Part shown: one piece after another, positions 1 to 47,503 of the stretch
Numbering within the stretch: the stretch's first letter is position 1
How the letters are laid out: each line of letters starts with the position of its first letter
Assembly (NCBI GenBank): GCA_958009085.1
Contig: OY253673.1
Location: forward strand, 868,001-932,000
Source of the DNA: Protoeuglena noctilucae
Taxonomy: Eukaryota
Direction of reading: 5' to 3'
Length of the DNA: 64,000 nucleotides
The notes under the pieces: generated by a model
What the model was told of the DNA's origin: nothing
Database searches by the model: none
What the model saw: only the letters and a program-made list of their open reading frames with translations
Translations under genes and position numbers: made by a program

Positions 1-2322
1 CCGCCACCCACCCCCACCACGCGAGATGGACCGCACCCGAACCCCCCTCCACGCGCGCCTCTGCTGGCCCCGCCTCGAGCGTCATTGCTTGCTGGAAGTC
101 GGCAGGTTCCCAGGCTGCGAGCGGGGATGCGCTGCGGAGACGACGCGCGACCTGCGCGCGAGAATGGGACTTGCTCAGATGTGCCGGGGCAGGGCGGCCA
201 CTCCTGAGCTCCGTCTGGGGCGCGCTCGCGAGCGAGGCACCTCTCGCAGGCACCGAGCCAGGATGAACGGTGCTGTGGACTCGGGACCATCCCCGCGCCC
301 ATCGGCCCTCGCGCGGCCCTCGAGGTGAGCCGCGAGGCAAAGCTCTGCGGCCCCGGCGCCCGGCACGACCCAGGGGTGTTCGACGGCCGTCCGTAGCACG
401 TGGTGGGCCGCGTCTGCCGATGCCTGCAGCGCCGCGCCTGCGTATGGGGATCCATTCGGGGCTGATTGCCTCCAAGAGCTGATGAGACCGCAAAGACGCT
501 TCTCAACGAAGGCCAAGGCACGAATGACGCAACGGTTGGACCGGGCTGTGGTGCATGGGGCCCACCCCGATGGAGACGCAGCGAAGCGAAAGCAAAGCAA
601 CACACCGGCGGCCTCCGTGGGGGCGCAGCAGAGGAGCGTCAGGACGGGGCACGAGTCATCGTCGTCGCTTTCGGGCTGCTCCGACACCCGGCCCCACGGC
701 ACGATCCCGAGGAAGTCCCTCCCCGCCACGCGCCGCAGATACACGTGTGACGCTGCGCCGAGGCTGTCGCGGAGGGCGGGGCCCAGGGCGTGCTCGATAG
801 ACGGGAGAGGCACGGCGCCCGTGGCGCGCCTAAACGCGCCCACGTGCATCGCCGAGAGACGCTCGACTGGCAAAACGCCTCTCTTGCGGAGCGACTCCTG
901 GACCAAGGGATGGACTGTGATGGAAGAACAAACTCGCCAGTCCAATCCCCCGCATGCTTAAGAGCAAATCTCTGCTCCTGTCAAGGTCCCCTGTGCCCAG
1001 GCTGCAGCACAGGCGCCGCCTGCTCGACAGTTCGTGACACGCAGAGGACTGCTAGTAAAATCGCGGACTCACTGGTGCGTTGGCTGGCCACCACCCTGGC
1101 CCCCGCGGCGCAGAGAGCCTCGACTGCCGCGTGCAATGCCGCCAACTGCGCTGCCTCCGGCTGCGTATCCCCCGAGAGCATGTCGATAGAGGCGGCAGGG
1201 CCGAGGTGCCGAGGAGCTTGGTCCTCCGTGGCGGCAAGCACGTCGAGCGGGCAGGTGAAGAGCGCCACAAGGTACGGTGCGTCGGCAGGGCCCATGGGCA
1301 GCAGACGCTCGTGCCCGGATTCGATCCTCAGGCGGGACGGCGCCAGGACTCCAGGCAGAAGCACGCTGGCAGCCACGGCCCCTCCCGGGGCGGCCTGTGT
1401 GGCAGTATGGTGGCAGGCAACCATCCACAGCACGTTCCCGACAGGCGACAGCACGCCCATGCTTGCGCATGCTCACCAAGGTTCGGAGCCCGGAGGCCAC
1501 GTGCCCCGTGGCGGCGGTGCGGACGAAGCCCTCGACGACGAGCCGGGCCATCCGCTCCACACCTTCCACCCCAGCCACAGGAAGGACCTTAGGGCTCAGG
1601 ACGCCCCTGGCCAAGCCGAGCAGCACGTGCGCATTGCCCCAGTCGAGCTCAACGCACATTCGTCCCACGCCCGCGTCTGGTGGGGCGTCGAAGGCAGGCG
1701 ACGCATCGTGTCCCATTGCGGGCGCTGGATGCGCGCACTTGCCACAGCGCAGGCGGGGCGGACCGTCGGAGCGGCAAGCGAGGTCCGGCGGGACGAGGAG
1801 AGCCTCCACGACGTCGGCGTGGTGTCGCAGCGCTGCCAGACACCGTACCCGGAGCGGGCCTGGAGGGAACGCCGCCGACACCTCCTGCGCGAGGAACGTC
1901 ACGACGGGGTTGGGCACAAGAGCGATTACCGACACCGTCCAAAAGAATGGGCTGTCTAATCAGGAACCGCATTGGTGTGACCGTCTCCGTCATAGCAAGG
2001 GGCGCCGCACCTGGACGAGCGCGCATGCCAGAGACAGGGAGAGGTGCCCGCCATCGCGGAAGGCGTTGTGCTGGCTGATCGCAGTGGCATCCACGAGGCC
2101 CCGCAAGAGGGCGTTCTCCAGGCGCACGTGCCCAAAGACGTCCCCCGATGTCTTGGATAGCACGCAGTCCGGGTCCCCCTCCCGCGCGAGGGCCACCAAG
2201 CCACCCTGGGGCCCGTAGCACCGTCCGCCGATGTCCCGGAGGACGCGCGTCCCGTCCAAGACCCCTCGCTCCAGGTCATCCCCCGCCAGCCACCGCGGCG
2301 CGCCCCGGTCGGGGGCGGGCAT
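1..2322 (-). CDS. MKKS: MKKS/BBS6-like group II chaperonin paralog, multi-exon; 3' end runs off the window
   Basis: Several segments match human MKKS as I recall it. 'RCYGPQG...QHNAFRDGG' corresponds to 'SCYGPSG...QNHVSSFSDCG'. 'VELDWGNAHVLLGLARGVLSPK' corresponds to '[22 protein letters not shown]'. 'VHPLVQESLRKRGVLPVERLS...TGAVP' corresponds to '[21 protein letters not shown]...TGTQP'. 'AHHVLRTAVEHPWVVPGAGAAELCLAAHL' corresponds to '[29 protein letters not shown]'. Confidence 0.8.
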
Positions 2323-2348
2323 GGCACTCGCCCATAGCCTGCGAGGGA

Positions 2349-2803
2349 CTAGCGCCCTCGCCCCGCCTCGTCCGCCGGCATGGTCTCGAGCACCTCACGC
2401 AGCGCCTTGGCCAGGAGCCGCGCCGGTCGCTTGTGCTGCAGACCCTCCAGTTTCCGCACGGGGCGACCGCCGACCAGGACAACGAACGTGGGGACGGTCC
2501 TGGGGGCCTGAGGGGTCGCCTCCTAGTCGCACGCCGCGTGCACTTACATAACCGAGTCACAGACAGCCAGGGCTCTCACCGGACGTCCCAGGCCTCGTCC
2601 AGTGCGTCGAACGCGGGCTGAGCGAGGTCCACCGTGGCGAAGACGACGTTTCCTGAGAAGTAGTCGGCGAGAGATGCGTATTTGTCGGCAAAGCGCTGGC
2701 AGGGGACGCACCACTCAGCGGAGAATTCCACGCAAAGGGCCGTCGTATCCGCGGCAAGGCGACGCAAGTGCTCCACGCTCTCCACGTGCACAACGGAGCT
2801 CAT
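2349..2803 (-). CDS. Thioredoxin-family protein with WCVPC active site, 2 exons (2803-2580, 2499-2349)
   Basis: 'VEFSAEWCVPCQRF...VVFATVD...WDVR|TVPTFVVLVGGRPVRKLEG'. GT-AG intron at 2579-2500, cis-Pro motif 'VPTF', TAG at 2351-2349. Confidence 0.9.
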
Positions 2804-2984
2804 CCGGGCCAAGTGTGAGTACGCAGCAAGAGATCGCGAGGAGACCGCTGTGGAAGCAAGCAATTTCACTTCTCAAGGGCTCTGGCGTTTCAGGGCCTCC
2901 CCGGTTCCGGGCCCTCGACCGTCTGCGTCGGCGGCCCGCGTCTCCCTTTTCCCTTACCTGGGCCGGAGCAGGGACCTGGCGAAG

Positions 2985-4151
2985 ATGGTGAGCTGCCGCG
3001 GGAGGGCCACGGTCGGGCGGCTGCCGGGCCCGCTGGAGGGCTGGAGCGCCTCCCCGCCCTCGGCTGGGACTTCCTTTGCGTGCACGTGTCTTTGCCACGC
3101 CATGCGGTCTTGCGAGCGCTCGCATCCGTTTGCCGGGCCACGACCGGCGACTCCCTGCGTCGCCTGCGGGGTCGCTGACCCGCGCATGAAGCCGTGGCCA
3201 CGAGCATTGGTTCGAGGCTTTGTCTGAGCCTCAAGCCGTTGCCGCACGGCCGGGGATGTCGACGGCTGGCTGCCCTGGGTCGCGCGCGGCCCCAGGCCCC
3301 GCGTTAGGGTCCGCCAGTTATGTGTTTCGACGTGTACTATCTCCTGGTCCCCTGCGGCGTGGAGGAACCCGCGGCTGGGTGGCGCCTGGGCCGGTCATGC
3401 ACGCGGCGGTGGTCGCGGCCCAGCTCCGGGCCAGCGGACACTCCGTTGCCAATTTCCGTGCCTGGACGTTTCGCTGGGCTTTCACCTGTTTGCGGGGCCT
3501 GTGGCCGCCGCGACCGCGCCGCGGGTCCGCTCGAGAGGGCCTTTGCGTTGTCTGTGCCCGCAGCCGCGCCAGATTACCGAGATCAAGGACTTCCTCCTAA
3601 CGGCACGCCGTAAGGACGCCAAGTCCGTCAAGGTGAGGGTCCCGCGCGTCGGGGCCGGGCCCCGCGGCGCCCGCACACGGAGGGGCACACCTGGGAGGTG
3701 GTGTCGCCCCCTCCCTGCCGCCGCCGGCGTTCACGAGCCGGCCGCGAGACGCTCGCAGATCAAGAAGACGGCGGGCGTGATCAAGTTCAAGGTCCGGTGC
3801 TCGCGCTACCTGTACACGCTGTGCGTGGCGGACGCCGACAAGGCCGACAAGCTGAAGCAGTCCCTCCCCCCGGGTGCGTGCCACGGCGAGGAGGCCGTTG
3901 CCTTATTGCCATGTCATGCATGCCACACGGCATGTGTTAGTTGTCCCGTGGTGGCTCATGCTTCTGCTCCCAATGTCCCGTGGTGGCTCATGCTTCTGCT
4001 CCCAATGCTTGCAAGCCTCCCCAGGGTCCCCAGTGGGTGACAGCCAGCACAGGAGCCGACTATGGCGTGGGTGGCCCGCTGACCACCGCAGACCGTCGCA
4101 CCCTCCGCGCACGCAGGCCTCATGGTCCAGGACATCGACGCCAAGAAGTAA
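2985..4151 (+). CDS. RPL38: 60S ribosomal protein L38, 4 exons (ATG-only first coding exon 2985-2987, ~3564-3632, ~3759-3873, 4117-4151)
   Basis: '[73 protein letters not shown]'. Pyrimidine tract at ~2941-2955 upstream of the ATG. Confidence 0.97.
3942..4005. repeat. Perfect 32-bp tandem duplication in RPL38 intron 3
   Basis: tgtcccgtggtggctcatgcttctgctcccaa occurs at 3942-3973 and 3974-4005. Confidence 0.95.
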
Positions 4152-4877: not shown

Positions 4878-7800
4878 ATGTCGGGCGTCAAGGTGGAGAC
4901 CGACTCCGACTCGGACGATGGCATGACGCTGGCCCAGAAGAAGAAGGAGCTGGCGGCGCGGAAGGAGGCTGCGTCCGCCGGTGAGCCTTTGCAGCAGCGC
5001 TGCAGCCCCGACCGGACCGTTCTTCCAGCTCCTGCGCGCCGCAGCAATCTATGGCTTTGTTTCCAACAGCCTGCGCTGGGTGGGTCGTCGTAGAACTGCC
5101 CACGCTGCTGGCACTTGGCTCACAGTTCGGGCTTCGTCTTGAGGGCGCGCCCGGCGCCGAGCCTTCGCAATGTCCCTGGCATCTTTGATAGTACTGCGTA
5201 TAGACGGGCATGCGATGGGCGGCAAACTCTCACGCGCGGGCTCGCATCTGCAGGTCCCAGCGGCGCTAAGCCCCAGCTGCCGGTCCAGAAGGCCGGGGCG
5301 CCCAAGGCAGCCGCGCCCGCCACCACCGCGTCCAAGGCTTCTAACGGCGCGTCCGCGGCCGGCGCATCGGCGACGAAGGTGCAGGATGCGCGCTGGGAGA
5401 GGCCCTCGTCCTTGCAAAAGTCAGTGTGGACAGAGCAGACCAGCAACCGCCGTTCCTTGCGCGCAGACTGTGCGGCTGGAGGTTGCGAAGCCACCGAGCG
5501 CAGCGCCAAGCGGAGGAGACGCTTTTGGGAAGCCCGCAGCCGAGGGGCGCGCCGACGCTGTGGCGCCCGGTGGGCCGGGCGAGCCATCCGCTGCAGCGGA
5601 GGCCCCGGCGGCCTCGGACGCCGCACCGGACGGGGAGGCGCAGGCGCCCGCGAAGGCCGCGGCCCCGGGAGGCGCTGGAGCGGGGAAGCCGGGGGCACCG
5701 CCGGCCAAGCCGGTCCCCAAGGGCGGCATCAAGCGCCCGGCGCAGCCTTCGTCCTCGGAGCCGGCGGCGAAGAAGTCTGCGGTCGCGGTGAAGCGGACGC
5801 GCCCGGCGAAGAAGCAGTCGAGCAGCGAGGAGAGCTCCAGCGACGACAGCTCCAGCGACGACTCTGGCTCGTCGTCATCCGGCAGCGGGTCGTCGAGCTC
5901 GTCGAGCGGGAGCGGGAGCGACAGCAGCGACAGCAGCAGCGGTGACAGCGACAGCAGCGACGACGACGTGCCGTTGGCGCGGCGCAAGGCCGCCGTCCAG
6001 GCCAAGGCGAAGTCGAAGGCGAAGTCGAAGGGCAAAGCGGAGGGCGAGGGGAGGAGGAGGGCCAGGGCAGCGGCGGAGCCGAGGGGTCGACGGCGGAGGA
6101 ACGAGGGCGGCGGGGACGACCAGAACAGGTGAGGCCTCACGAGCTCGGCCGGGGCTTTGGTGCGGTCTCTTGGTGGCAGTGCGACTGCTGGCTGCACGTC
6201 TGTTTGCGTCAGATATGCTAAACTGAGCTGCACCACCGCTGCGTCGCTGTGGTGGCAGCACGCCCAGTGCCACCCCGTCGCCCTTTCATGTGCACCCTGG
6301 CTCGGCCTTCCTGCAGGGAGGAGCCGAAGTGGGAGTTCCAGCTGGAGCACAACGGGGTGCTCTTCCCGCCCGAGTACGAGCCGCACGGCATTCCGATCCT
6401 CTACGACGGCGAGCCGGTCGAGCTGAGCCCGGAGGCCGAGGAGGTGGCGACCATGTTTGCGGCCATGAGAGAGTCGGACTACATGAACAAGCACACGTTC
6501 CGCAAGAACTTCTGGGAGGACTGGAAGGCCGTCCTGGGCCCGCGCCACGTCATTAAGGCGAGGGACGGACGCGCTGTAGTGGGGCTGCCGGCGGGGCGCA
6601 GTGATGCTGCAAGCCTCCCGTGCGACGCTGGGGCGACTGCTCGCCGTTCGAGGCAGCAGCGGCTGGTGCGCGATCACGATAGTCACCCTGGGTCACCAGC
6701 GCATGGGTGCCATCCAGCGCCGCTGACGGGCGCCCGCCACGCTTTGCCCAGGACCTCTCGAAGTGCGACTTCCTGCCCATCTACGAGTACCTCACGGGCC
6801 GGAGAGAAGCCAAGAAGACCATGCCCGCGGAGGAGAAGAAGCAGATTCAGCAGGAGAGGGAGCAGGCCGAGGCGCGGTTCAAGTTCGCCATCATCGACGG
6901 GAGGAAGGAGCGCATCGGGAACTTCAGGTGAGGGCCGCGGCAGGGCCGGTTGGGTACTGCAGGCGGCCGCAGGGGACCCTCAGGGCGCGCATCGCCTCAG
7001 GGCACGCATCGCACGGGTCGCGCCATCGGGCCATGAAGTCGTGCGCCTGAGTGGGCCGCTGACGCTCTGACACTCTGGCCCACGGGCCCCTCCCCCTCTC
7101 AGGGTCGAGCCCCCCGGTCTGTTCCGGGGCCGCGGGGAGCACCCGAAGATGGGCAAGTTGAAGAAGCGCATCTACCCCCGCGACGTGACGCTCAACCTCT
7201 CCGAGAACGCCCCGGTGCCGCCGTCGCCGTACCCCGACCAGACGTGGAAGGAGGTCGTGAGCAACAAGCACGTCACGTGGCTGGCGTACTGGAAGGACCC
7301 CATCCTCTCGCGAGGGTACAAGTATGTGCACCTCGCCGCTGACTCGGCGTGGAAGGGCAAGTCCGACCGGGAAAAGTACGAGAAGGCGCGGGAGCTCAAA
7401 AGCCGCATTGAGGAGATTCGCCGAATCTACACGGAGAGCTTCCGTTCGGAAGACCGCAAGGAGGCGCAGATCGCGGTTGCGATCTACTTTATCGACAAGC
7501 TGGCCCTGCGTGCGGGCCACGAGAAGGACGAGGACGAGGCCGACACGGTGAGAGCCGGGCGGGCGCGCGATCTCAGCTCCGCGGGCGGCTGTCCTGGCGG
7601 GGCTGCGCTGCGGTGCCTGGCCGCGACGGCGGGGCTTCGCTCGCCCCTCGCCGCAGGTGGGCTGCTGCACGCTGCGGTGCGAGCACGTGGACATCGAGCC
7701 CGGTAACAGCAACCGCATCAAGCTGCAGTTCCTGGGCAAGGACTCGATGATGTACGAGAACACGTTTGAGGTGGACCCGGTGGTGCACGACTTGGTCATG

Positions 7801-8579
7801 GGGTGGGTCAGCGGGGACGCCAAGGGCAAGTCGAAGCGGCCCAACGACCCGCTCTTCGACGCCTTCTCTGCCGGCGACCTCAACCAGTACCTGGGGAAGT
7901 GCATGGTCGGCCTCACGGCCAAGGTGTTCCGCACCTTCAACGCGTCGGCGACGCTGGACCGCCTGCTGGTCGAGTCCGAGCGTCGGATGGACGAGAACAC
8001 GAACCTGGAGGCCAAGCTGGCGGCGTACAACATGGCCAACAAGGAGGTGGCCATCCTGTGCAACCACCAGCGGTCGGTGCCCAAGGGCCACGCGCAGCAG
8101 ATGGCGAAGCTCGACGAGAGCATCCAAAAGGCGGAGGAGGAGCTGAAGAAGGCGGAAGACGAGCTGGAGGCGATGCAGGAGGACAAGGAGTACGTGAAGA
8201 AGGGGGGTAAGAACAACAAGGTCGAGGCGGCCCGGAAGCGCGTGAACCAGAAACGGGAGAAGCTGGGGATCCTCAAGAGCCGGCGGACGGTGCGGGAGAA
8301 CCTGAAGACGGTGGCCCTGGGCACTTCCAAGGTGAGGGTGGGGGACACTGGGCCGACCAATGTGGGCATGGGCAGTGGGAGGGGGCGGGGGCGGCCAGGG
8401 CTGGGCTTGGGCGAGCTTCAGCGCTCGGCCGCGCCCCGCTGCAGATCAACTACATGGACCCCCGCATCACGGTCGCGTGGTGCAAGCGGAACGAGGTCCC
8501 TCTGGAGAAGATCTTCAACCGGTCCCTGCTCGCCAAGTTCAATTGGTGCCTGGACGTGGAGCCCGAGTTTCGATTCTGA
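4878..8579 (+). CDS. TOP1: DNA topoisomerase I (type IB), multi-exon, with Ser/Asp/Lys-rich N-terminus
   Basis: '[15 protein letters not shown]', '[27 protein letters not shown]', '[13 protein letters not shown]', 'ADTVGCCTLR', '[12 protein letters not shown]', 'VAILCNHQR', catalytic '[13 protein letters not shown]', terminal 'FRF*'. Confidence 0.98.
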
Positions 8580-9287
8580 GTACCCGGGGCCTCCGCCGGG
8601 GCTAAGGGACGCGCTCGGGTGCAAAGCGCCGCTGCACATGTATCGAGGGCATGCGGGACGTGCGCTGGCCTGCTGTGCCGCGCACTTGAGGAGCCGTTCT
8701 GTCAGGCGGGGCGCCCTGGGCCGTGGGGCAGCGATCCAATCCACCGCGCCATCGCGCGCCCGGGACCTGCGCAGATGTGTCCGGTCGCTCGTGAACTCTG
8801 CTTTGCCGGGCTTCTGAGCGCGGCCAGCACGGTGCAGCACATCCCACCTGACACGCGAGTGGAAGAAGACGCACCGGTGAAGGGAGGAAGCCTTCACGCG
8901 GCCCTTGGCAGTTTCCGGTCGCAGAGTCTCAGGATTGGCGCACTTGAACCGCAAGGGCCGCACGAATCCGCTGCAGCTGGTGAGCGGGAAGGGCTCGCTG
9001 CCCTGCCGTCGCAGCAAAGAGTCGCATTCCACTGTTCCACACGAATTGACGATTCAAGCGGATGGAGACGTCGATCGGCCCCGGGCGCGCCGAGTCCGGG
9101 CCAAACGTCCGAAGTCACATGCATTCTGGCCTCCGTCGTGACCCTTCCACGCGACGGCATAATCCAGATTATCCATGCACACGTGGTTGATTTCGATCGC
9201 GTGCGCGCCGCAGGTGGTCTCAGTTCGCCAGCATCGGGATCATTGACCTCCCGCCTCCTCGCCTGCAGGCCCAGGCCCACACCAGAC

Positions 9288-11183
9288 ATGCTCTGGTACA
9301 CGAAGGTGCGCAACGCACATGCAGGATGCCGGCACGTGCGCTTGCATGCACTTGCAGCGACTCGCACGGTCGCGGGCATCCGTGCACGCAGAAAAACAGC
9401 GATGCGTCGACAACAGCGGGCGCCGACTCGTTCGCGACGCTCGGGGATGTGCTGAAGCACCAGACCCATGATTTTACGAAGATGCGCAAGCGGAGGGTCC
9501 TCGGTCAGGGCGCATTCGGGACGGTGCTGCTCATGGAGGAGAGCAACCCAGGCGGTGTGAAGTCGATCGCCGTCAAAGTCCTCAACCCAAACGCGCTGGA
9601 CGTCAACAATCTCCGCTTCTTTCTCTCTGAGGCCAAGTGCGGGTCACACTGCCGCGCACCGGCCAACGCGGCCACGCGTTAGTGCTGCGTATGCCCATGC
9701 TCTGCCCGGCACCCCTCCGCAGGCTCCTCCAGCAGCTCAACCACCCGTACATCGTCTCGTTCGAGGGCTTCGGTTCCATGAACAGCGCCGAGAGCATCGA
9801 CCCCAGCACGCCCCTGGAGGGGCTTCAGACAGAGGTGCACAGTTGCGCCCTTGGATGCCCGGCTTGCTGTCGTCTCGCTGCCTTCCCTGAGACCCCAGCT
9901 GCCCTTCTGCGCCGCAGTCCATCTTCCTGGCTCAGGAGTACATGGCCGGCGGCATCCTTCGGGAGGTCATTGCCAAGAAGATGTCCTCCCCGCGCTCACT
10001 TGTTTACACCTGGTGACCATCCATTGTGACTGGCGAGCACTGTCTGACCGTTAAGTTGACCCGTCGCCTTCACTGCGCCTCTCTTCCCCCGCGCAGGACG
10101 GACGTCTTCCGTTGGTTCCTCGGCCTCGCCCAGGGCATGGCGTACCTGCACGCCCAGAGCCCCGCCATCGTGCACCGGGACTTGAAGCCGGAGAACATCC
10201 TCTTCTCAAGCAAAGACCTCAAGACGGCCGACGCAAAGATCGCGGACTTTGGGCTGTCCAAGGGCATCAAGAGCCGCGCCGAGAGGGACAAGGAGGGATC
10301 GGTGAGCGGCTGGCGCGGCCGGAGGCGGGAAGACATCGCCGGGAGGGTGTGGCAGCGAGCAGCGGTGTTAGCAGCGCCCGGAAAGCTCGACCCATTCCTC
10401 AACGCAGCGAAGGGTCGCACCGTTTGGCGTGTCCACCTCCAACCTCAGCGGCAAGAACCTTTGGCCCAAGTCAGAGCGGTCCCAGCGGCTCCTCATGAAA
10501 ATCCAGGCGACGAGCCCTGCCCACCGTGCTTTGCAAGATCGAGTCATGACCAGCCTAGTTGCCTAACTTGCAGGCGTGCTGTGTTGCACCCGCAGACCTC
10601 CAAGTTCAGCTACACTGCGGTCGACGCCACGGGCAACACGGGCAGCAAGATGTACATGTGAGGGTGCGCAGTCGCAGTGTTGCTTGCTTCTACCTTGGCA
10701 CAGGCCCAGGTGTGCGCCGTATCTCACCCTCACCCCATGGAAGTGCCCCCAGGGCCCCGGAGGTGTACAACTCGCTGCCGTACAATGAGAAGGCCGACGT
10801 CTTTGCGTACGGGGTCATCCTGTTCGAGACCCTGAAGGGAGAGATCCGCTCGGCCCTGTTCTTGTCGGGCCAGCCGTGGGAGGCCGAGAAGTACGCGACA
10901 GACGTCGCAGGAGGCTACCGCCGCCCCATCCCGGACGAGTGGCCGGAGGAGGTCAAGGTGGGGTGCTGTTCAAGGCATGCAGGTGGGGCAACAGATGGTA
11001 GTCGCCGACGAAGTCGTGGCACGGCCCTCGCAGATGCTCATCGCACAGCTGTGGGCCCAAGAGCCGTCCGAACGACCCAGCATGCAGCGCGTCGTGTCCT
11101 TCCTCGAGTCTTTCATTGCCGAGCGCATCCCGCAGGAGTGGGACGACGCCCACGTCAGGAAGGGGTGCTTTGGCGCGCAATAG
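9288..11183 (+). CDS. TKL-type Ser/Thr protein kinase (tandem copy 1); start approximate
   Basis: 'LGQGAFGTV', 'IAVKVL', '[10 protein letters not shown]', 'KIADFGLSK', 'TGSKMYM|APEV', '[13 protein letters not shown]', 'PSERPSM'; ends KGCFGAQ*. Confidence 0.92.
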
Positions 11184-11565
11184 CGCGGAGATACCGCATT
11201 GGGTTGCCCCCGGTTTCCAGCGCCAGTGCATTTGTTCAATCGCCGACGGATTTCGGCCTTGCTGTTCCATCATCGTGCCATGTATTGAATTAATGGCAGA
11301 GATTTGGGGTAGGGGCTGACGTGCGGGCGCTCGAACAGGCCCACGCGGCCAACGACAGGTGCGTGGGGGAAGTGCCTCTGCGGCTCGAGCAGCCAATCAA
11401 TCGTACCGCGATCGACGCCCCTTGCTTTTTGTTACCTATGTTACGCAGGTTACGCTAACTTTTACGGCAGAGATGACCTCCTAGCTTCGACATAGACGTG
11501 CGTCTCAAATCAAGCCTCGGGCCGAGCATAGCGCCGGTGTCGCACCGCACCGCTGCACGCCTGTA

Positions 11566-13612
11566 ATGTTCGACATCACGAGCGAGGTGAGAGCCGCAGA
11601 CAGGGCTGGCGGGAGCTGAGATCCGCGTGGGCAGGGTCTGCAGCCCAAACCCCGACTGCCGCAGCGGCCAAGCCGGGTCGTGACTCTGGAAAATGACGAG
11701 GAAGAGAAAGCGGGGCCACGAGTGCAAACCGACGAAGTGCAGCCATTCCAGGCAAGGGTCGCGGCGACCAGCACCGGTTGCGAAGTGTGCGGTTGGGCTG
11801 GCAGAAGGGGATGGCATTGCGGTCAGCTGCGTGTGCCCCTGCAGCCAGGCAGGTGACGAATGAAGCCACGTTCCCGCACGACTCGCGCAGGTCATGAAAA
11901 GAAGGCGCGTTCTGGGGTACGGGACGTATGGCACGGTGTTTTTGGTGCTGGCGAAGAGTAAGAGCAAGGGGAGGGAGCTCGTAGCAGTGAAAGTGCTGAA
12001 CCCCAACAAGATGGACCACGGATGTCTTCGTCTATTCCTCGCTGAAATTAGGTGAGGAGCCTGGGTGTGAGCGGCAAGTGTTGGCACCATGGCGGCGCAT
12101 CAGGGCAAGGCACGAACCCCCGCCCCTCGCCGCAGGCTCTTGAGTCGCCTGCGGCACCCAGCGATCGTCACCTTCCGAGACTTCGTGAGCCTTTCGGCGC
12201 TGACGCACGTGGACCCGTTTGTGACGGTCGAGAGCTTGGCACACAAGGTGCTCTTCTAGCAAGGGCAGCCCGGCTGCAGATTCGCAGAGCGTGCCGCGCC
12301 AGCGCTTTTCGAGCCCACAGCGACACGCGGGCGTCGGCGGGCATGCACGCGAAGCACGGGTCGTTCATAAGCCCCATGTGCCCCGTCCCTCGTCCGCAGA
12401 GGGTGGCCCTGGTGCAGGAGTACATGCCAGGCGGGACGCTCCGCGACGCCATACATCGCAAGATGTCCCAGCCCTCCGCATACGGCTGGTGCGTTGCCGC
12501 GACAGCTCCTCACGCCGTCTTGTGCATGCTTTGTTGGAAGCCATATCTGTACGTTACAATGTCTGTGCATCGTTCTTAACCTGCAGGGCGGACGTGTTCC
12601 GTTGGTTCCTCGGCCTCGCCCAGGGCATGGCGTACCTGCACGCCCAGAGCCCCGCCATCGTGCACAGGGACTTCAAGCCTGAGAACATCCTGCTCACGAC
12701 CACGAACCTGCGGCGCGCGGAGGCCAAGATCGCGGACTTCGGCCTGGCCAAGGCCATCAAGCGCTGCGTCGTGGAGCCAGGACCCGAGGCCGTCTCTACG
12801 TTGCGCAGGGCGGGCCCGGACCGCCACCGTACGAGCACCCGCGCAGAGCACAGCATTCAGTCCTCCTCCCGATCCCAGTCGCCCTGCGCCCGCTCCCCGA
12901 GGATCCTCAAATCTCTCGAGGCGAGCGAGCAAGCGCTTGGCGCTTGTCGTGTTGCCCAACCCTGCCTGCACTAGAGCCCTGAGATGCACACCGGGTCGGT
13001 GCACACTCCATCTCACCTCGCCCCGCACGCAGATGCCCGACCAGTACATCGCCGTGGATGCCACGGGCCTAACAGGTGCGCTCCGCTTGCGTGTCTCTGG
13101 CAGGCGCCCTCTCCGGCGCGAGAGTGCCATGCTTAAGAGCGCGTCCCTGGGCCCACCACTCGCAGGCAGCCGGCTGTACATGGCCCCGGAAGTCTTCAAG
13201 CAGCAGCGCTACAACGAGTCCGTGGACGTCTTTGCATTTGGAGTCGTGCTTTTCGAGGCTCTGACGGGGCAGCTCAAGAGCCTGTCTTTTGTCACGGGGA
13301 TGCAGTGGGAGGCCGACATGTACGCCCGGGAGGTCGCGGATGGGTACCGAAACCCAATACCCTGGTCCTGGCCGGACGAAGTGAAGGCGAGAGGGTTGGC
13401 AGAGAGGTCAGCCAAGCGCCCCACATTGCTTCACAGCACGGGGTCGTGTCTGTGCGATACCGCACCTGCAGATGCTCCTAGTGGTGCTGTGGGCCCACGA
13501 CCCGTCCGTGCGGCCTCGGATGTCCTGCGTTGTCGATTGCTTGGCGGAGATCATCGCCAAGGGCATCCCGGAGCATTACGACGCCGAACAGCGGCACGCT
13601 TGCTCGTGCTGA
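11566..13612 (+). CDS. TKL-type Ser/Thr protein kinase (tandem copy 2); start approximate
   Basis: 'LGYGTYGTV', 'VAVKVL', 'QEYMPGGTL', 'HRDFKPENIL', 'IADFGLAK', 'GSRLYMAPEV', 'VDVFAFGVVLFE'. Intron positions largely match copy 1; ends HACSC*. Confidence 0.92.
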
Positions 13613-13904
13613 GCTTCTGCTGAAAGGTCCAGAGACTCGTATCGTTCTTTATGGATTCGGGATGATTTGGGTAGGGTACCCTCATAGCCTTGCATTTTTT
13701 GGTAGGACAGTCCCAGGATAGAGCTACGAGTGTCTGCCGCACGTAGCGCCAGAGATAAGCATGATGGAAGCCCTATTCGGCTTCCATCATGCCATGCACG
13801 CCATTGAAGCCTGCACATGGAATCCACAGTGACAACACACACTAGTATCTGCTCGGTGCAGTTCCTGTCTGGTCCCAGCGAGGTTGGTTGCGCTCAAGGC
13901 CGTG

Positions 13905-16900
13905 ATGGAGGAGGCGGGGGAGCTTGCTGGGGAGCTTGCCCGGGCGGTTGATGAGTACGGTGAGTTTTATCTATCAGTAGCGAGAGGTGGAACGGGTCTA
14001 CGCGGTGGGCCAAGCGAGGGCGTGCCTTTCCCTCGCAGAGCGCCAACTAGCCGACGTCCGCGGCGCCGCACAATACGATGGCAAAGACGACGATGTCGCG
14101 AATCTTGAGATGGCGCTGAAGGAGACCCGGGACGCTCTCGCGTCGCTGGAGGTGGGCAAACGGGGAGAGGCAGCACGCGTCGACTGCGCGATGCCCTACT
14201 TTCACCGCCTCGCCGCCCGCGCCGTCTCTGTGCCGCAGGAACAGGGAGTACAGGTTCAAAGGAAGGCTAAGCGACCGCGGACAGAGGAGACGCAGGGCCC
14301 GGAGACCGGTGCGTGGCTGGTGCACGAGACCGTCTTGTTACGCGCCGTTTCCTCTCTCGACGATGCCGGCCACGCTGTCCCCGCCGCAGTGCCGATCCCT
14401 AGCGACCCTGGCTTCGCCACCCTCGACGCCGTTTCGGAGGAGGTGCTCCTGCGCGTGAGGCCCGACCGCCCCGGCCGGGGCGCCCACCCTCGCAACAAGT
14501 ATGCCGTCCGAGAGCCTGACTTCCGGAAGCTCGGGTGCGCGGTTTGATCCACGCTCGATGCAGCCTCTCATCTGCAGACACCACCGAGGCTCAGAGCTCT
14601 AGGCGCTGCGCTGCTTGGAGGCGCTGCCACCTGACCCTCCTCAAACCCTCACCTGCACGCGCAGGGAGGCGTTCCCTTCCCTGGCTCCCTTCGTGGTGGA
14701 GTTCCCCGCGGCTCAGGGCCGCCCCGCCGCCGTCTCTCTCGACTTCCGGGACCCCGCCGCGATGCGGGAGTTGACGCGCGTGCTCCTCAAAGTGGACTTT
14801 GGCATCGACTGGTGGATCCCAGACGGACAGGTGACGAGCGGAGCTGGTTGTTTGTCTCGTGACGAGCGCGGGGAGCCATGCGCACCCTTCAGCCTTCCTC
14901 TGAGATGAACGTTAGGCGGCAGCCTTACACAGCTCGACACGGGGCCCCCGTGCCGCACCGCAGCTCATCCCGCCCCTCACCAACCGCGCCAACTACATCC
15001 ATTGGCTGGAGGACCTCGTGGGCCTGGCGGCGCCGGAGGGTCCCGCGGTGGGCCTGGACGTCGGCACGGGCGCCAACTTCATCTACCCTTTGCTGGGTGC
15101 CGCGCTGTGCGGGTGGCGCATGGTGGGGGCCGACGTGACCGACGAGGCGTGCACGTGGGCCTCGCGCAACGCAGCGGCCAACCCGCACCTGTCCCACCTC
15201 CTTGAGGTCCGTCGCGCCGCGCCCCCTGCGGGTGTCAGCCACGCCTCCGTCCGCTCCTCCGCCTCGGCGCCCCGATGCCCGAGGGAGGCCCTTCCGTCGC
15301 ACGTGACCGACGTCATCGACCTGCACTCCCGCGAGGGACAAGGCCAGGGCGACGCCCGGACCAAGGCGAGACACGGAGCTGTGCTCAGAGTGCGCAGCGG
15401 GACCGATAACCGATGCTGCAGCTGTGCGTGGGCCACAGTCATCAAACCTGCAATACATTGCATGCGGCACCGTGCGCACCGCGGAATGTCACCCGCCACC
15501 TCCGCCGCGTTTCTCTGCGCCTGCAGTGGCTGTCAGGCGGAGTGCTTTTGCCCTTCGTCCGCTCCGACGACCGTTTCGCCTTCAGCATGTGCAACCCGCC
15601 CTTCTTCGGGTCTGAGGCTGAGGCACGAGGGGGACCCAAGGTGCGGCTGACAGGACGGATAGGGTTGTTTTTGCATGGAGCTCTCGCACCACAGCCCGTG
15701 CAATGTGCGGCACCCTCGAGTGCTTGGCAATCTGTGGGTCACCCCTGGTGGCCCTGAGAGAGGCCCCTCTGCCGTGTGGCTGCTGCAGGCGGACTTTGGC
15801 GGCACGAACGTAGAGATGGTGTGCCCGGGGGGCGAGGCGCGCTTCTGCCGGAGAATGGTCGCAGACAGGTGCGGAGCAATGGGCGCTGAGACAGGCGTGG
15901 TAGCTTACCCTCTAAGTCTGTGCTACCATGGGTATGGCAGCATGACTGTGGACATGGCCTGCTTTGGGCTTACATCGAGCGCGCCAGGGCAATGCCTTCC
16001 CGCAGTTTCGTGCTGCGCGACCAGATTTACTGGTTCACGACGATGGTGGGCAAGAAGACGACGCTCCGGGACCTGCGCCAGCTGTTGCACGAGCTGAACG
16101 TGCCTGTGGTGCGGAGCATGGAGTTCACGCAGGGCAAGACACAGCGGTGGGGCATCGCGTGGTCGTTCGCCGCTCCCAAGAAAAGGGCCCTGGCGCCCAT
16201 CGGCCACGCCGCCTTCGCCAGCACGGGGGCAGGGGTCTTCGCGGCCCCAGACGCGGGGGCAGGGGAGGTGCGTCTATGTGTCACGTGCGGCTGTGATGGC
16301 CAGTATGCACTGTTGTGAGCTTGCACGAGTCTCTCTTTGGCAGACTGGTTGGCCTTGGCTCAAGGTTCATCCAACAGCGCTGCCTGGTCGGCTGTGACCA
16401 TGCGCTGGCTGCCCTCGCCACTAGGCCTCTCCCTCGCTGCGCCTGACGCCTCGTGGGCTGGACATGTCAACACCCCGCCGATGCCCGCAGGCCGACAGGG
16501 CGAGCGGGGCCGGCAGCGCGTCGCGGGTGGCTGCGGGTGCTGCCAAGGACGTGCCATCTCACCGGGCGTCGTGGACAATGAGCATAGAGGGCCGGGGAGA
16601 CCCCCAGGCGGTGGTGGACCGGCTAGAAAGGGTCCTTGTGGAGATGGGGTTCGAGGTCGTGTCTCGGGACAAGGCCATGTATGCCCTCAGCGCGGAGGGG
16701 ACGCGGCAGGGCGGGGCCAGGGAGCTCCGTTTTCGGGTGGCCGTGTTCGAGAGCCCAGGGACCAGGCAAGGGGCGTGCTGGGGTGGGACGCAGGGGTCTC
16801 TCTTATGCCGAGGGTAGACTTAAGGCAATGACGTCACGCTGATGTGCAGCGAACTCGTCGTGCGTGATTGCTGGCCCGCAGGCGAGGGACGCGAGACTGT

Positions 16901-20711: not shown

Positions 20712-22020
20712 ATGAAGGTCCGTCTCGCGCGCACCGCTGCCGCCGGGATGCCGTGTCGCGCCCGCCGCGGTCCTCGCGTTGTCTGGGATGCGGCGCGCTG
20801 GGCTGTGGGCCCGCCCTGTCCTCCGGGGGGCGGGGCGACGAGCTCCCCCTGCCCGTCCCCCCTCTCCGCGGCGTCCAGCGGCGGCCCGGCGCCCGCCCCA
20901 GCTCGCTATCGTTATTTCGGTCGCTCGCCGCACCCCGCGCGCCGCAGGCGACCCGGAGCCCGGCCAGGCGGCCCGACGCGCCCGCCCTCCCCGCCACCTG
21001 CAGATTAACATCGCGAACCCCGCGACCGGGGCGCAGAAGAAGATCGAGATCGAGGATGACTCGAAGCTGTGAGCGCGCGGTGGCCGGGGCGTCGCTGGCC
21101 TCCCCGCTGTCCTTCCCGAGCGCCGTGCCAGACGCTCACGGCGAGCTGAACCCCCCGTTGCGCGCAGGAGGGCTTTCTTCGACAAGAGGCTGTCGCAGGA
21201 GGTGGAGGGCGATGCGCTGGGGGAGGTGAGGCCTCGCGCCTTCACGTGGCGGCCATCGCGGCGGAAACCCGCCCGCGCGGGCCCGCGCCGACCGCGCGCC
21301 GGCCCGCCATCGACGCAGGAGTTCAAGGGGTACGTGTTCCGCATCACGGGCGGGCAGGACAAGGAGGGTTTCGCCATGAAGCAGGGTGTGCTGGTGCCCC
21401 ACCGCGTCCGGCTGCTCATGACGCCCGGGGACCAGGGCTTCCGGGGCTTCGGCCGCCGCAACGGGGAGCGCCGTCGCAAGTCGGTGCGGGGCTGCATCGT
21501 GTCCCAGGACCTGTCGCTCCTGAACCTGGTGGTGGTGAAGCAGGGGGAGAGCGACATCCCCGGCCTCACCGACCGCACCCTCCCGGCCATGCGCGGCCCC
21601 AAGCGCGCCTCCAACATCCGCAAGCTCTTCAACCTCTCCAAGGAGGACAACGTGCAGCTCCCCAAGTACGTCAACCTCTACCGCCGCACGTTTGAGGGCA
21701 AGGACGGCAAGAAGCACTCCAAGGCCCCCCGCATCCAGGTGCGCAGTCAGGCGGGCCGTTCGCGATGGGCCGTCGCGGTCGCGGGTCGTGATGGGTTGTG
21801 ACGGGTCGTCGTCGCCCCTTCCTGCCCGCAGCGCTGGGTGACCCCGCAGACCCTGCAGCGCAAGCGCCACCTGCGCTCGCTCAAGAAGCGCCAGTTCGAG
21901 CGCTCCATGAAGTCGGCCGCCGAGTACCACAAGCTTATGGTGCAGCGTGTCAAGGAGGCCCGCGAGCGCCGCTCCGCCTCCATCGCCAAGCGCCGGGCGT
22001 CCGCCGCTTCCAAGCAGTAG
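20712..22020 (+). CDS. RPS6: 40S ribosomal protein S6, 5 exons
   Basis: '[21 protein letters not shown]', '[25 protein letters not shown]', '[13 protein letters not shown]', '[14 protein letters not shown]', '[18 protein letters not shown]', phospho-tail '[12 protein letters not shown]'. Confidence 0.98.
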
Positions 22021-30157: not shown

Positions 30158-31479
30158 ATGTCGGCTCTCGTCGCTCGCGCTTCGCTCCTGGCCCGGCCGG
30201 CCGCGTCGCAGCCGGCCGGTCGGGGTGCGCAGGCCGCATGCGTCCGCGCGCTCCCCCCCTCGGCTCGGTGAGCGTTCGGGACGCGCTCGCCCAGCCCGCC
30301 CGAACTTATCGGGTTGCGCCCGCCGTGGGCGCGGCCCTCGTGGGCACGGCATGAGCAGCCGTCTCGCTCGGGGGCTCGCGGACGTGCTGGCGCGCCCGGA
30401 TGCGCGCGGGCGCTTCCCGGCGTCGCGTCCCGCCCCGTCGTCGCGGACCCAGCGCCGCCGCGAGGACGACCTTGCCCCCATTTGATTTTCTGCTTGTTGT
30501 AAACGCGATGGCGACGCGACATCGCCGCCAGCGTCGCCCTCGACCTTACATGCGGCTGGGGGGATCTGCAGTGTGGCCGGGCGCGAGAGGGCCTGCGTGG
30601 GCCTTCCTGCGACCGGGCACGGCACCGGTGGGGGAGCTCGACCGCACACGCATCGCCGCTGTCCGCAGGGAGGTTGCCAAGCCCGCTGCCGTCCTGCTCG
30701 TGTCCAACCTCATCGCGGCTTCCCCCGCGATGGCCGGCAACGTGTTCGACTTCAACCTCACGATGCCCATCATGATGGGTCAGTTCCTGCTGTTGATGGT
30801 GTTCCTGGACAAGGTGAGCCGCGCGGAGCAGGGGCCGCGGCGACTGCGCGGTTCGCTCGCGCCAGCAGGCGCCTCAACCTGCCCGATCCCCGCCGCAGAC
30901 GTGGTTCGGGCCCGTGGGGAAGGTTCTGGATGAGCGCGACGCCAAGCTCCGGAGTATGCTGGCGGCGGTGAAGGACAACTCGGCGGAGCTTTCCCGGCTC
31001 GCGGCCGAGGCGGAGGAGGAGCTCAAGGCCGCCCGCGCGGAGGCCCAGGCGCGCATCGCGGAGGTCAAGGTGCGGAACCGCTTCGGTGCCCCGCCGGGCC
31101 GCTGGGGACGGGGACGGCGCGGGCGGTCCTGGCTCAGCCGCGTTGCGTCATCCGCTCGCCTGCCCCCGCTCTGCGCAGGCCGCGACGCAGAAGGAGTGCG
31201 AGGCGAAGCTCGCGGCGGCCAAGTCCAAGGTGGACAGCGAAGTGAACATGGCGCTGGCCCAGGTGCGACGCGCAGCACTGGCGCTGGGGACGGCAGCACT
31301 GCAGGCATGGGGCTTGCATGGGACAGGCTGGTGGCAGGGCGGCGTGCGACGCCGCGGCCCCCTTGCGCTCGCAGCTGGAGTCGGAGAAGCAGGCCGCGAT
31401 GGCCAACCTGGACAAGCAGGTGTCGGTGATGGCGGACGAGATCCTCAAGCGCATCCTCCCCGAGGGTGTCCGCGCGTGA
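30158..31479 (+). CDS. ATPG: Chloroplast ATP synthase CF0 subunit b' (II), with transit peptide, 5 exons
   Basis: Exon 1 'MSALVARASLLARPAASQ...' is transit-peptide-like. Then 'ASPAMAGNVFDFNLTMPIMMGQFLLLMVFLDK|TWFGPVGKVLDERDAKLR' and 'LDKQVSVMADEILKRILPEGV'. Confidence 0.96.
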
Positions 31480-47100: not shown

Positions 47101-47503
47101 GGGAACCAGCCTGTCCCGACCCTACCAGGTGGCCGTCATCACTCCTTACCGGGAGCAGAAGGCCCACCTGTCGCGCCTGCTGGCATCCAGACGCGGAGAC
47201 GTGGGGCTGCCGGCGTTCGACCCCGCCCACATCGCCATCGACACGGTGGACTCGTTCCAGGGCAAGCAAGTCGACGTGGTAATCATGTCGTGCGTCCGCA
47301 CCGACCCCTCGGGCAGGATTGGCTTCGTGGCGGACGTGCGTAGGCTCAACGTCTCCATCACGCGTGCCAAAAGGGCTCTGTGGATTGTGGGGAGCTGCCA
47401 GGCACTCGAGGCGAGCAACGCGACGTGGAAGGCACTGATCGATGACGCCAGGGGACGCCAGTGCTTCCACAGCCCCCACACGTGCCCAGAGGTCTACGCC
47501 TGA
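44171..47503 (+). CDS. SEN1/senataxin-like SF1 (Upf1-like) helicase, compact
   Basis: 'PDSFDSATQY', Walker A 'GPPGTGKT', 'ILVCAPSNAAIDEL', 'VLIDEACQ', 'LVGDPQQLPAT', 'SLFERL', 'QYRMHPEI', 'ITPYREQ', 'TVDSFQG', 'RRLNVSITRAK'. Confidence 0.94.

What the first reader, a model, noticed from the sequence alone, without database searches (positions are those of the whole stretch)
2320..2803. Thioredoxin and MKKS/BBS6 appear to share one transcription unit: bicistron or alternatively spliced Trx-chaperonin fusion
Seen: on the minus strand the thioredoxin TAG (2351-2349) is only 26 nt upstream of the MKKS-like ATG (2322), leaving no room for a poly(A) site plus promoter. The gap contains 'tccctcgcag' (AG ending at 2339), which looks like acceptors used elsewhere in the window (ccctcgcag at ~11033 and 14038). 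Thioredoxin exon 1 ends in phase 2 (GTC CG|gtgaga, donor 2579). Splicing it to the acceptor ending at 2500 gives complete thioredoxin. Splicing it to 2339 gives CG|G CTA TGG GCG AGT GCC ATG, exactly in frame with MKKS. Established: bicistronic nuclear mRNAs occur in chlorophytes, and thioredoxin-fold phosducin-like proteins are CCT co-chaperones. Inference: one promoter, shared divergently with RPL38, may produce either free Trx or a WCVPC-bearing MKKS fusion, or a bicistronic mRNA, coupling a redox module to BBSome assembly. The in-frame match has a 1-in-3 chance probability.
Basis: partly seen in the sequence, partly recalled or inferred. Interest (0 to 1): 0.85.

Follow-up and report, generated by a model that had tools for sequence, protein, structure and literature searches.

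The report
Thioredoxin and chaperonin-like genes co-transcribed
A small thioredoxin gene and a very divergent chaperonin-like gene sit 26 bases apart and appear on one spliced RNA, most likely a two-protein (bicistronic) messenger of the kind already known in green algae, not a spliced fusion protein.

Summary
Assembled RNA from one marine metatranscriptome study shows the normal thioredoxin splice (2580->2499) in two runs. One spliced 1780-nt contig runs unbroken from chaperonin exon 4, through exons 3-1, across the 26-nt gap and the thioredoxin stop codon, to 123 nt inside thioredoxin exon 2. No 2580->2338 junction was seen in any of 3 RNA runs, although a depth-2 isoform was detected. The best reading is therefore a bicistronic mRNA (about 0.65). 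Its anatomy fits published green-algal bicistrons: ORF1 of 375 nt, 26-nt spacer, weak ORF1 start context. Contigs cannot exclude two overlapping transcripts (about 0.2). The fusion reading is unsupported (about 0.04). The downstream gene belongs to the TCP-1/cpn60 family (Pfam 47.8 bits, cut-off 34.3). The label MKKS/BBS6 could not be tested, and no relative was found in 1.84 billion representative proteins. Conservation of the pair could not be tested either. A minor isoform splices an upstream exon into thioredoxin exon 1 and skips its start codon. Verdict: a new member of a known kind, of moderate interest.

The parts
2580..2823 (-). Thioredoxin exon 1: at least 20 nt of 5' leader (RNA contig reaches 2823), ATG at 2803, WCVPC active site, ends in phase 2 at 2580
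   Evidence: PF00085 E 1.2e-10, 41.8 bits vs cut-off 23.5; X1 record 3 covers 2626-2823; X2 record 7 covers 2579-2801
2500..2579 (-). Thioredoxin intron, 80 nt, GT..AG; holds the only minus-strand TGTAA in 1-3100 (at 2548)
   Evidence: joint 2499/2580 in X1 (depth 12.8) and X2 (8.97), absent from DNA-like run X5
2349..2499 (-). Thioredoxin exon 2 with stop TAG at 2351-2349; contains an in-frame internal ATG at 2381
2323..2348 (-). 26-nt inter-ORF spacer; holds the acceptor-like motif ending in AG at 2340-2339 and an out-of-frame ATG at 2335-2333
   Evidence: transcribed without a break in X1 record 1 (2010-2471)
2276..2335 (-). Short out-of-frame ORF (19 codons plus stop) that starts 13 nt before and overlaps the chaperonin-like ATG; start context G at -3, G at +4
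2011..2322 (-). Chaperonin-like gene exon 1 (104 codons, phase 0); first in-frame ATG after the in-frame stop at 2397-2395
   Evidence: (residues 30-103 on PF00118 positions 3-74, E 0.15, weak)
1477..1884 (-). Chaperonin-like exon 2
   Evidence: joints 1884/2011 and 1394/1477 in X1 and X2
1073..1394 (-). Chaperonin-like exon 3
   Evidence: joints in X1 and X2
606..914 (-). Chaperonin-like exon 4
   Evidence: joint 914/1073, and loose end at 605 whose letters match the sequence from 437 downward; (PF00118 E 3.2e-4)
1..437 (-). Chaperonin-like exon 5 (VPGAGAAE region) and the further 3' part of the gene, which runs off the window start; exon ends after 437 not determined
   Evidence: ORF 178-957: PF00118 47.8 bits vs cut-off 34.3, profile positions 351-413
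2653..2957 (-). Intron of a minor minus-strand isoform: consensus donor after 2958, acceptor AG at 2654-2653 inside thioredoxin exon 1. It skips the thioredoxin ATG and the active site
   Evidence: joint 2652/2958 in X1 only, depth 2.07, shorter side 26 letters; sequence context
2985..4151 (+). RPL38 gene, head-to-head with thioredoxin (181 nt between the two ATGs); first intron 2988-3563
   Evidence: joint depth 308; PF01781 E 4.1e-29

Best explanation
The two ORFs form one transcription unit that yields a bicistronic nuclear mRNA. ORF1 is a 124-aa CxxC thioredoxin whose 80-nt intron is removed. A 26-nt spacer follows. ORF2 is a multi-exon, very divergent group-II-type chaperonin-like protein. 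Shown here: the canonical thioredoxin splice, and unbroken RNA sequence from thioredoxin exon 2 across the stop codon and spacer into the spliced chaperonin exons. Inferred: both ORFs lie on the same molecules, and ORF2 is translated by ribosomes that scan past the weak-context thioredoxin ATG (leaky scanning, as shown experimentally for green-algal bicistrons). The internal ATG at 2381 and the overlapping short ORF at 2335 would probably keep ORF2 output low. The proposed Trx-chaperonin fusion by alternative splicing is at most a rare product.
For: - Bridging contig: X1 record 1 is 1780 nt at depth 16. It lies on 605-914, 1073-1393, 1476-1883 and 2010-2471 with 0 mismatches. It is therefore spliced (RNA-derived) and continuous across the gap, with 123 nt on the thioredoxin side.
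- The thioredoxin joint 2499/2580 is present in X1 and X2 and absent from the DNA-like run X5. None of the 6 joints is in X5.
- Contig depths for the thioredoxin and chaperonin parts are alike: 12.8-15.7 vs 16 in X1, and 8.97 vs 7.93 in X2. The tool warns that contig depth is a poor measure.
- The anatomy matches published bicistrons (sections 6-8 of PMC11291117). ORF1 is 375 nt against medians of 357 and 291 nt. The spacer is 26 nt against medians of 183 and 40 nt. ORF1 has a weak context (C at -3, A at +4) and ORF2 has G at -3. The leader may be short; the contig reaches only 20 nt upstream of the ATG.
- Other same-strand neighbours in the window, judged from Pfam-positive ORFs, lie hundreds of nt apart or more.
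- No TGTAA or AATAAA lies between the thioredoxin stop and the end of the window on this strand.
- The chaperonin-like N-terminus is complete without a fusion: residues 30-103 align to PF00118 positions 3-74 (weak).
Against: - Assembled contigs cannot show single molecules. The tool states that a contig across two genes shows no single transcript.
- Only 1 of 3 RNA runs has a contig with 31 or more letters on both sides of the gap. In X2 the two contigs break at 2361-2371, overlapping by 11 nt. X3 contigs run unspliced through introns and look like DNA or pre-mRNA, so X3 says nothing.
- All RNA runs come from one study.
- ATG depletion before ORF2 is not significant: 3 observed including ORF1's own start, against 3.7-5.0 expected.
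- The ATG at 2335 has a strong context and overlaps the ORF2 start, which is unfavourable for simple leaky scanning.
- Nothing shows that either protein is made.
- Conservation could not be tested because no relatives were found.
- That the organism is a green alga is only hinted, by a nuclear ATP-synt_B gene.
Confidence: 0.65

Rival explanations
1. There are two independent but overlapping transcripts. The thioredoxin mRNA ends inside chaperonin exon 1, and the chaperonin-like mRNA starts inside the thioredoxin gene. The short-read assembler merged them into one contig.
For:: contigs cannot tell molecules apart. In X2 and X3 the chaperonin-side contig stops at 2371, only 23 nt into thioredoxin, and the X2 thioredoxin contig stops at 2361. 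Compact algal genomes often have overlapping UTRs (general knowledge).
Against: The X2 thioredoxin contig ends 10 nt before its own stop codon, so that break is technical and not a 3' end. X1 bridges the place at depth 16 and reaches 2471. Depths of the two parts are nearly equal in X1 and X2, whereas a housekeeping thioredoxin with its own mRNA would be expected to exceed a chaperonin paralogue. No TGTAA or AATAAA lies downstream of the thioredoxin stop. Neighbouring genes in the window are not packed this tightly.
Confidence: 0.2
2. Alternative splicing of thioredoxin exon 1 (donor after 2580) to the acceptor-like AG at 2339 makes an in-frame fusion of the WCVPC half-domain with the chaperonin-like protein.
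For: The frame arithmetic is right. The acceptor-like motif is rarer than chance in a 26-nt gap, about 0.03-0.05 expected, and resembles two RNA-proven acceptors of the same gene (1885, 438).
Against: No 2580/2338 joint in 0 of 3 RNA runs, although a depth-2 joint was reported in X1. The RNA that carries the chaperonin exons retains thioredoxin exon 2 and the stop codon. The fusion would carry only the first 75 residues of the thioredoxin fold. The chaperonin N-terminus already has normal length before the Pfam domain. Contigs drop rare variants, so a product under roughly a tenth of transcripts is not excluded.
Confidence: 0.04
3. The chaperonin-like protein is made mainly from the minor isoform. 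Its upstream 5' exon (ending at 2958, antisense to the RPL38 start) is spliced to 2652 and removes the thioredoxin ATG. The full bicistronic RNA would then serve thioredoxin only.
For:: joint 2652/2958 in X1 with consensus donor and acceptor (sequence). The break between X1 records 2 and 3 at 2626-2655 (30 nt, as expected if the assembly word is 31, which is my assumption) fits a true branch there. No ATG lies on the minus strand between about 3100 and 2958 (read).
Against: Seen in 1 of 3 RNA runs, at depth 2.07 with only 26 letters on the shorter side. The extent of the upstream exon is unknown. The ATGs at 2381 and 2335 remain in this isoform. It could be splicing noise from divergent transcription.
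Confidence: 0.08

Closest known systems
Nuclear bicistronic/polycistronic loci of green algae (Gallaher et al. 2021, PMC7896298; Duenas et al. 2025, PMC11892635 / preprint PMC11291117)
   Same: A small ORF1 followed at very short distance by a larger ORF2 on one spliced transcript, with a weak ORF1 start context. Thioredoxin-domain ORFs occur in three listed loci (Cz01g08250, Cre14.g615250, UTEX250_A02.03185; supplements).
   Different: No full-length read exists here, only a short-read contig. A strong-context overlapping ATG sits just before ORF2. The organism's lineage is not established. A thioredoxin plus chaperonin pair is not in their supplementary tables: 0 occurrences of chaperonin, TCP-1 or Cpn60 in the 7 files searched for each paper, and 0 of MKKS in the Duenas files, the only ones searched for it.
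Chaperonin-like BBS proteins MKKS/BBS6, BBS10, BBS12
   Same: A highly divergent paralogue of group II chaperonins. By eye, the loop where canonical members carry the nucleotide-binding motif (motif recalled, alignment by eye) is degenerate, as the review PMC5534436 describes for BBS6 and BBS12.
   Different: No sequence comparison with any BBS chaperonin could be made. PMC10074162 (passages) places their origin in Opimoda, with none reported from green algae. Whether this organism has cilia or a BBSome is unknown.
CCT/TRiC subunits and archaeal thermosomes
   Same: Best solved-structure matches are thermosome alpha (E 0.0038) and CCT alpha (E 0.4-0.9) on the VPG.GA.E region. NCBIfam gives weak thermosome models.
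   Different: Far more divergent than any canonical CCT subunit. Exons 2 and 3 match no family, and nothing but the ORF itself was found in 1.84 billion representatives.
Phosducin-like thioredoxin-fold co-chaperones of CCT (PhLP family)
   Different: The window protein has an intact CxxC site and matches classical thioredoxin and PDI domains. There is no Phosducin-family hit at E up to 0.1.

Membership tests
Green-algal bicistronic nuclear locus | Both complete ORFs on one mature transcript (full-length read) | tested here: inconclusive
   one spliced contig (X1 record 1) bridges from 123 nt inside thioredoxin exon 2 to chaperonin exon 4 and beyond. No single record holds both complete ORFs, and contigs cannot prove single molecules.
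Green-algal bicistronic nuclear locus | Very short inter-ORF distance and a small ORF1 | tested here: met
   Spacer 26 nt and ORF1 375 nt, against published medians of 183/40 nt and 357/291 nt.
Green-algal bicistronic nuclear locus | Weak Kozak-like context at ORF1, stronger at ORF2 | tested here: inconclusive
   ORF1 has C at -3 and A at +4. ORF2 has G at -3 and C at +4. No species-specific consensus was built.
Green-algal bicistronic nuclear locus | Depletion of ATG before ORF2 | tested here: inconclusive
   3 ATGs in 421 nt against 3.7-5.0 expected. One extra ATG (2335) has a strong context and overlaps the ORF2 start.
Green-algal bicistronic nuclear locus | Organism is a green alga | not tested
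   No whole genome is held. The only hint is a nuclear ORF matching ATP-synt_B PF00430; that this points to the green lineage is my own knowledge.
Thioredoxin (PF00085) | Pfam score above the curated cut-off and a CxxC active site | tested here: met
   Exon 1 alone scores 41.8 bits against cut-off 23.5. WCVPC is present. PDB matches are thioredoxins and PDI domains.
TCP-1/cpn60 chaperonin family (PF00118) | Pfam score above the curated cut-off | tested here: met
   ORF 178-957 scores 47.8 bits against cut-off 34.3. That ORF reads through an in-frame intron, but the match lies in exon 5. Weaker matches on exon 4 and exon 1 fall at the expected profile positions.
MKKS/BBS6 | Groups with BBS6 rather than CCT1-8, BBS10 or BBS12 in a phylogeny or reciprocal search | not tested
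   No reference BBS or CCT sequences could be obtained. Searches returned only the window's own ORFs.
MKKS/BBS6 | Diverged ATP-hydrolysis motif and two family-specific insertions (PMC5534436) | tested here: inconclusive
   By eye only, the loop near residues 89-93 of exon 1 is degenerate. The insertions were not mapped.
MKKS/BBS6 | Occurs in a ciliated organism that has a BBSome | not testable with these tools
   No genome is held.
Phosducin-like CCT co-chaperone | Match to the Phosducin family; redox-inactive thioredoxin fold | tested here: not met
   No Phosducin hit at E up to 0.1. The CxxC site is intact.

The most novel reading that the evidence does not exclude
The locus is a splicing-controlled switch. 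The main RNA is a thioredoxin/chaperonin-like bicistron. An alternative upstream exon, transcribed antisense to the RPL38 start, is spliced into thioredoxin exon 1 and deletes ORF1's start codon and active site. That turns the same unit into an ORF2-dedicated mRNA for an orphan, ATPase-degenerate chaperonin-like protein, possibly a BBS6-like assembly factor outside Opimoda, that works together with the co-expressed thioredoxin.
Probability: 0.1. Interest if true: 0.7.

Novelty: new member of a known kind. Interest (0 to 1): 0.4.

Why it matters
If confirmed by full-length reads, this would add a bicistronic nuclear mRNA from a marine, GC-rich alga whose proteins have no close relatives in public collections. 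That would extend a phenomenon documented mainly in Chlamydomonas, Chromochloris and Auxenochlorella. The pair is unusual: a redox enzyme with a chaperonin paralogue. It offers a natural test of how a strong-context overlapping upstream ATG and an ORF1-skipping splice isoform affect translation of ORF2. For annotation, the lesson is practical. Gene callers that expect one ORF per transcript would drop one gene or fuse the two.

Tried and rejected
- Whole-genome search: no genome is held for this window.
- Relatives of the chaperonin-like protein: exon 1 against longer proteins, 0 of 1116 candidates. Exon 4 against longer proteins, 1 of 606, the window's own ORF P0004. HMMER of P0004 against 1.84 billion representatives found only itself. 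These E-values are for huge libraries, so weak chaperonin similarity cannot pass.
- Relatives of the thioredoxin: 1 candidate, the window's own ORF.
- Metagenome scan with thioredoxin exon 1: 31 loci, with best-segment identity of 26-61% over short stretches. A local tblastn with the spliced chaperonin found none of the 31 carrying a chaperonin-like gene. Conservation of the adjacency therefore remains untested.
- Earlier findings of this scan: nothing by place, sequence or words.
- Rfam and tRNA scans of the whole window: 0 matches. No known snoRNA explains the RNA cover of the RPL38 intron (2958-3517 in X1), which is most simply unspliced RPL38 RNA. The contig start at 2958 is 30 nt before the RPL38 donor, as expected for an assembly overlap and not for a transcription start.
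- X3 was dropped as transcript evidence because its contigs run through introns.
- Stop-codon read-through as a route to a fusion: rejected. TAG at 2351 and ATG at 2322 are 29 nt apart, hence in different frames.
- A frameshift fusion was considered. I saw no classical slippery heptamer by eye in 2394-2352, but this was not tested formally.
- An IRES in a 26-nt spacer was judged implausible and not tested.
- The TGTAA poly(A) signal is not enriched in the window: 21 on both strands against about 32 expected. Its absence downstream of thioredoxin is weak evidence.
- Complex prediction, structure prediction and fold search were not used.
-, protein 4 was given in the wrong frame by my own slip and is not used.
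Full report
**Observation.** On the minus strand a thioredoxin ORF starts at 2803. Its first exon ends at 2580 in phase 2 before GTGAGA. An 80-nt intron (2579-2500) follows, and exon 2 ends with TAG at 2351-2349. After 26 nt (2348-2323) an ATG at 2322 opens a 104-codon exon. The translations give a 124-aa protein with a WCVPC site and the N-terminus of a chaperonin-like protein. The AG at 2340-2339 sits in a pyrimidine-rich, acceptor-like motif. Motifs of that type occur 164 times on both strands of the window, so about 0.03-0.05 are expected in the gap. My definition caught only 2 of the 5 RNA-proven acceptors of these genes. The frame match is a 1-in-3 event. RPL38 lies head-to-head on the + strand, with ATG at 2985 and PF01781 at E 4.1e-29.

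**What the genes are.** Thioredoxin exon 1 alone passes the Pfam threshold for PF00085 (41.8 bits, cut-off 23.5). It matches thioredoxins and PDI a-type domains among solved structures and NCBIfam thioredoxin models weakly. There is no Phosducin-family match.

The downstream gene has at least five exons, defined by RNA junctions: 2322-2011, 1884-1477, 1394-1073, 914-606 and 437 onward, running off the window start.
- The ORF 178-957, which reads through an in-frame intron, passes the Pfam threshold for TCP-1/cpn60 (47.8 bits, cut-off 34.3; profile positions 351-413).
- Exon 4 matches profile positions 262-343 at E 3.2e-4.
- Exon 1 residues 30-103 match profile positions 3-74 at E 0.15. The domain order and the length of the N-terminus are therefore those of a complete chaperonin.
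- The best solved-structure matches are thermosome alpha (E 0.0038) and CCT alpha (E 0.4-0.9).
- GC3 is 0.82 in both ORFs, against 0.58-0.65 GC in the introns.

It is thus a very divergent group-II-type chaperonin paralogue. The label MKKS/BBS6 could not be tested, because no BBS or CCT reference sequence could be brought in and every large search returned only the window's own ORFs. According to passages of PMC10074162, chaperonin-like BBS proteins arose in Opimoda and are mostly metazoan. A review (PMC5534436, passages) cites a 2013 study for earlier origins; I could not read that study.

**RNA evidence.** One search found four RNA runs of one marine metatranscriptome study and four DNA-like runs that hold the stretch. 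I laid X1, X2 and X3 (RNA) and X5 (DNA-like) on 600-3700.
- X5 covers everything in one piece and shows none of the six joints.
- X1 and X2 carry spliced contigs.
- The thioredoxin joint 2499/2580 is present in both X1 and X2.
- X1 record 1 (1780 nt, depth 16, no mismatches) lies on 605-914, 1073-1393, 1476-1883 and 2010-2471. It goes from chaperonin exon 4 through exons 3-1, across the spacer and the thioredoxin stop codon, 123 nt into thioredoxin exon 2, without any splice at 2339.
- In X2 the chaperonin contig ends at 2371 and the spliced thioredoxin contig at 2361. Because 2361 lies before the thioredoxin stop codon, this break is technical.
- X3 contigs run through introns (888-1147, 1872-2086, 2558-2776), so X3 behaves like DNA or pre-mRNA. 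I do not use it.
- No 2580/2338 joint appears in any of the 3 RNA runs, although a joint at depth 2.07 was reported in X1. Contigs drop rare variants, so a rare fusion is not excluded.
- Contig depths of the thioredoxin and chaperonin parts are similar (X1 12.8-15.7 vs 16; X2 8.97 vs 7.93). This is only a hint, as the tool warns.

**A minor isoform.** X1 also holds a joint 2652/2958 (305 nt skipped, depth 2.07, 26 letters on the shorter side). On the minus strand it has a consensus donor after 2958 and a pyrimidine-rich acceptor with AG at 2654-2653. X1 records 2 and 3 overlap by exactly 30 nt at 2626-2655, as expected at a true branch if the assembly word is 31 (my assumption). This isoform would start upstream of the RPL38 start on the opposite strand and skip the thioredoxin ATG and active site. 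It is seen in one run only.

**Mechanism.** The best reading is a bicistronic mRNA. Published green-algal bicistrons share these features (PMC7896298, passages; PMC11291117, outline with abstract and sections 6-8):
- a small ORF1 (medians 357 and 291 nt);
- a short spacer (medians 183 and 40 nt);
- short leaders;
- a weak ORF1 Kozak-like context;
- ATG depletion before ORF2, with leaky scanning shown by mutation.

Here ORF1 is 375 nt and the spacer 26 nt. The ORF1 context is weak (C at -3, A at +4) and ORF2 has G at -3. Two features do not fit. ATG depletion is not significant (3 against 3.7-5.0 expected). An out-of-frame ATG at 2335 with a strong context opens a 19-codon ORF that overlaps the ORF2 start. 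Together with the in-frame ATG at 2381, this would lower ORF2 translation. The steps from co-transcription to translation are inferred, not shown.

**Rivals.**
- Overlapping independent transcripts cannot be excluded with contigs. They are less likely given the equal depths, the absence of TGTAA or AATAAA after the thioredoxin stop (weak, since TGTAA is not enriched in the window) and the wider spacing of other same-strand genes.
- The spliced fusion has no RNA support.
- Read-through cannot fuse the ORFs, because they are in different frames.

**Comparison and novelty.** Thioredoxin-domain ORFs occur in three listed bicistronic loci (Cz01g08250, Cre14.g615250, UTEX250_A02.03185). No chaperonin, TCP-1 or Cpn60 entry occurs in the 7 supplementary files searched for each of the two papers, and MKKS, searched only in the Duenas files, occurs in none of them. 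A full-text search for bicistronic, thioredoxin, chaperonin and green alga gave one unrelated paper. The locus is therefore a new member of a known kind.

The organism's lineage is not established. The window is 62-75% G+C, has short GT-AG introns, and carries a nuclear ORF matching ATP-synt_B. From my own knowledge, that last feature hints at the green lineage. Conservation of the pair could not be tested: the metagenome scan gave 31 distant thioredoxin loci, none with a chaperonin-like gene.

**Verdict.** Interest is moderate.

Noticed in passing
window 2653-2957 (-): A minor spliced isoform joins an exon ending at 2958 (antisense to the RPL38 start) to 2652 inside thioredoxin exon 1, skipping the thioredoxin ATG and active site. 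Seen in X1 only, at depth 2.
   Followed up: partly
window 2958-3517: RNA contigs cover most of the RPL38 first intron unspliced (X1 depth 8.7, against 308 for the spliced joint). This is most simply RPL38 pre-mRNA, but the strand is unknown and it could belong to the minus-strand upstream exon. No Rfam family was found there.
   Followed up: partly
run X3 on window 600-3700: This run is labelled RNA, but its contigs run through introns at depth about 4. It seems to contain DNA or unspliced RNA of this organism.
   Followed up: no
window 1-2322 (-) and protein P0004: The chaperonin-like protein and the thioredoxin have no detectable relatives in the large protein collections beyond the window's own ORF calls. 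The organism seems to be poorly represented in those collections.
   Followed up: partly
window 438-605 (-): The 168-nt intron between chaperonin exons 4 and 5 is in frame and free of stops. An ORF-based gene call (P0004) therefore reads straight through it.
   Followed up: yes
window 30818-31426 (+): A nuclear ORF matches ATP synthase B/B' CF(0) (PF00430, E 1.4e-7). From my own knowledge this hints at a green-lineage host.
   Followed up: no
window 5100-8580 (+), 10000-13620 (+), 14900-16320 (+), 21070-21800 (+), 44760-47500 (+), 48280-50550 (-), 55820-56800 (+): Other genes recognised by Pfam on ORF pieces: topoisomerase I, a protein kinase, a Methyltransf_10 RNA methyltransferase, RPS6, a UPF1-like helicase (AAA_11/AAA_12), a TPR plus GT41 O-GlcNAc-transferase-like gene, and a NUDIX/DUF4743 protein.
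   Followed up: no
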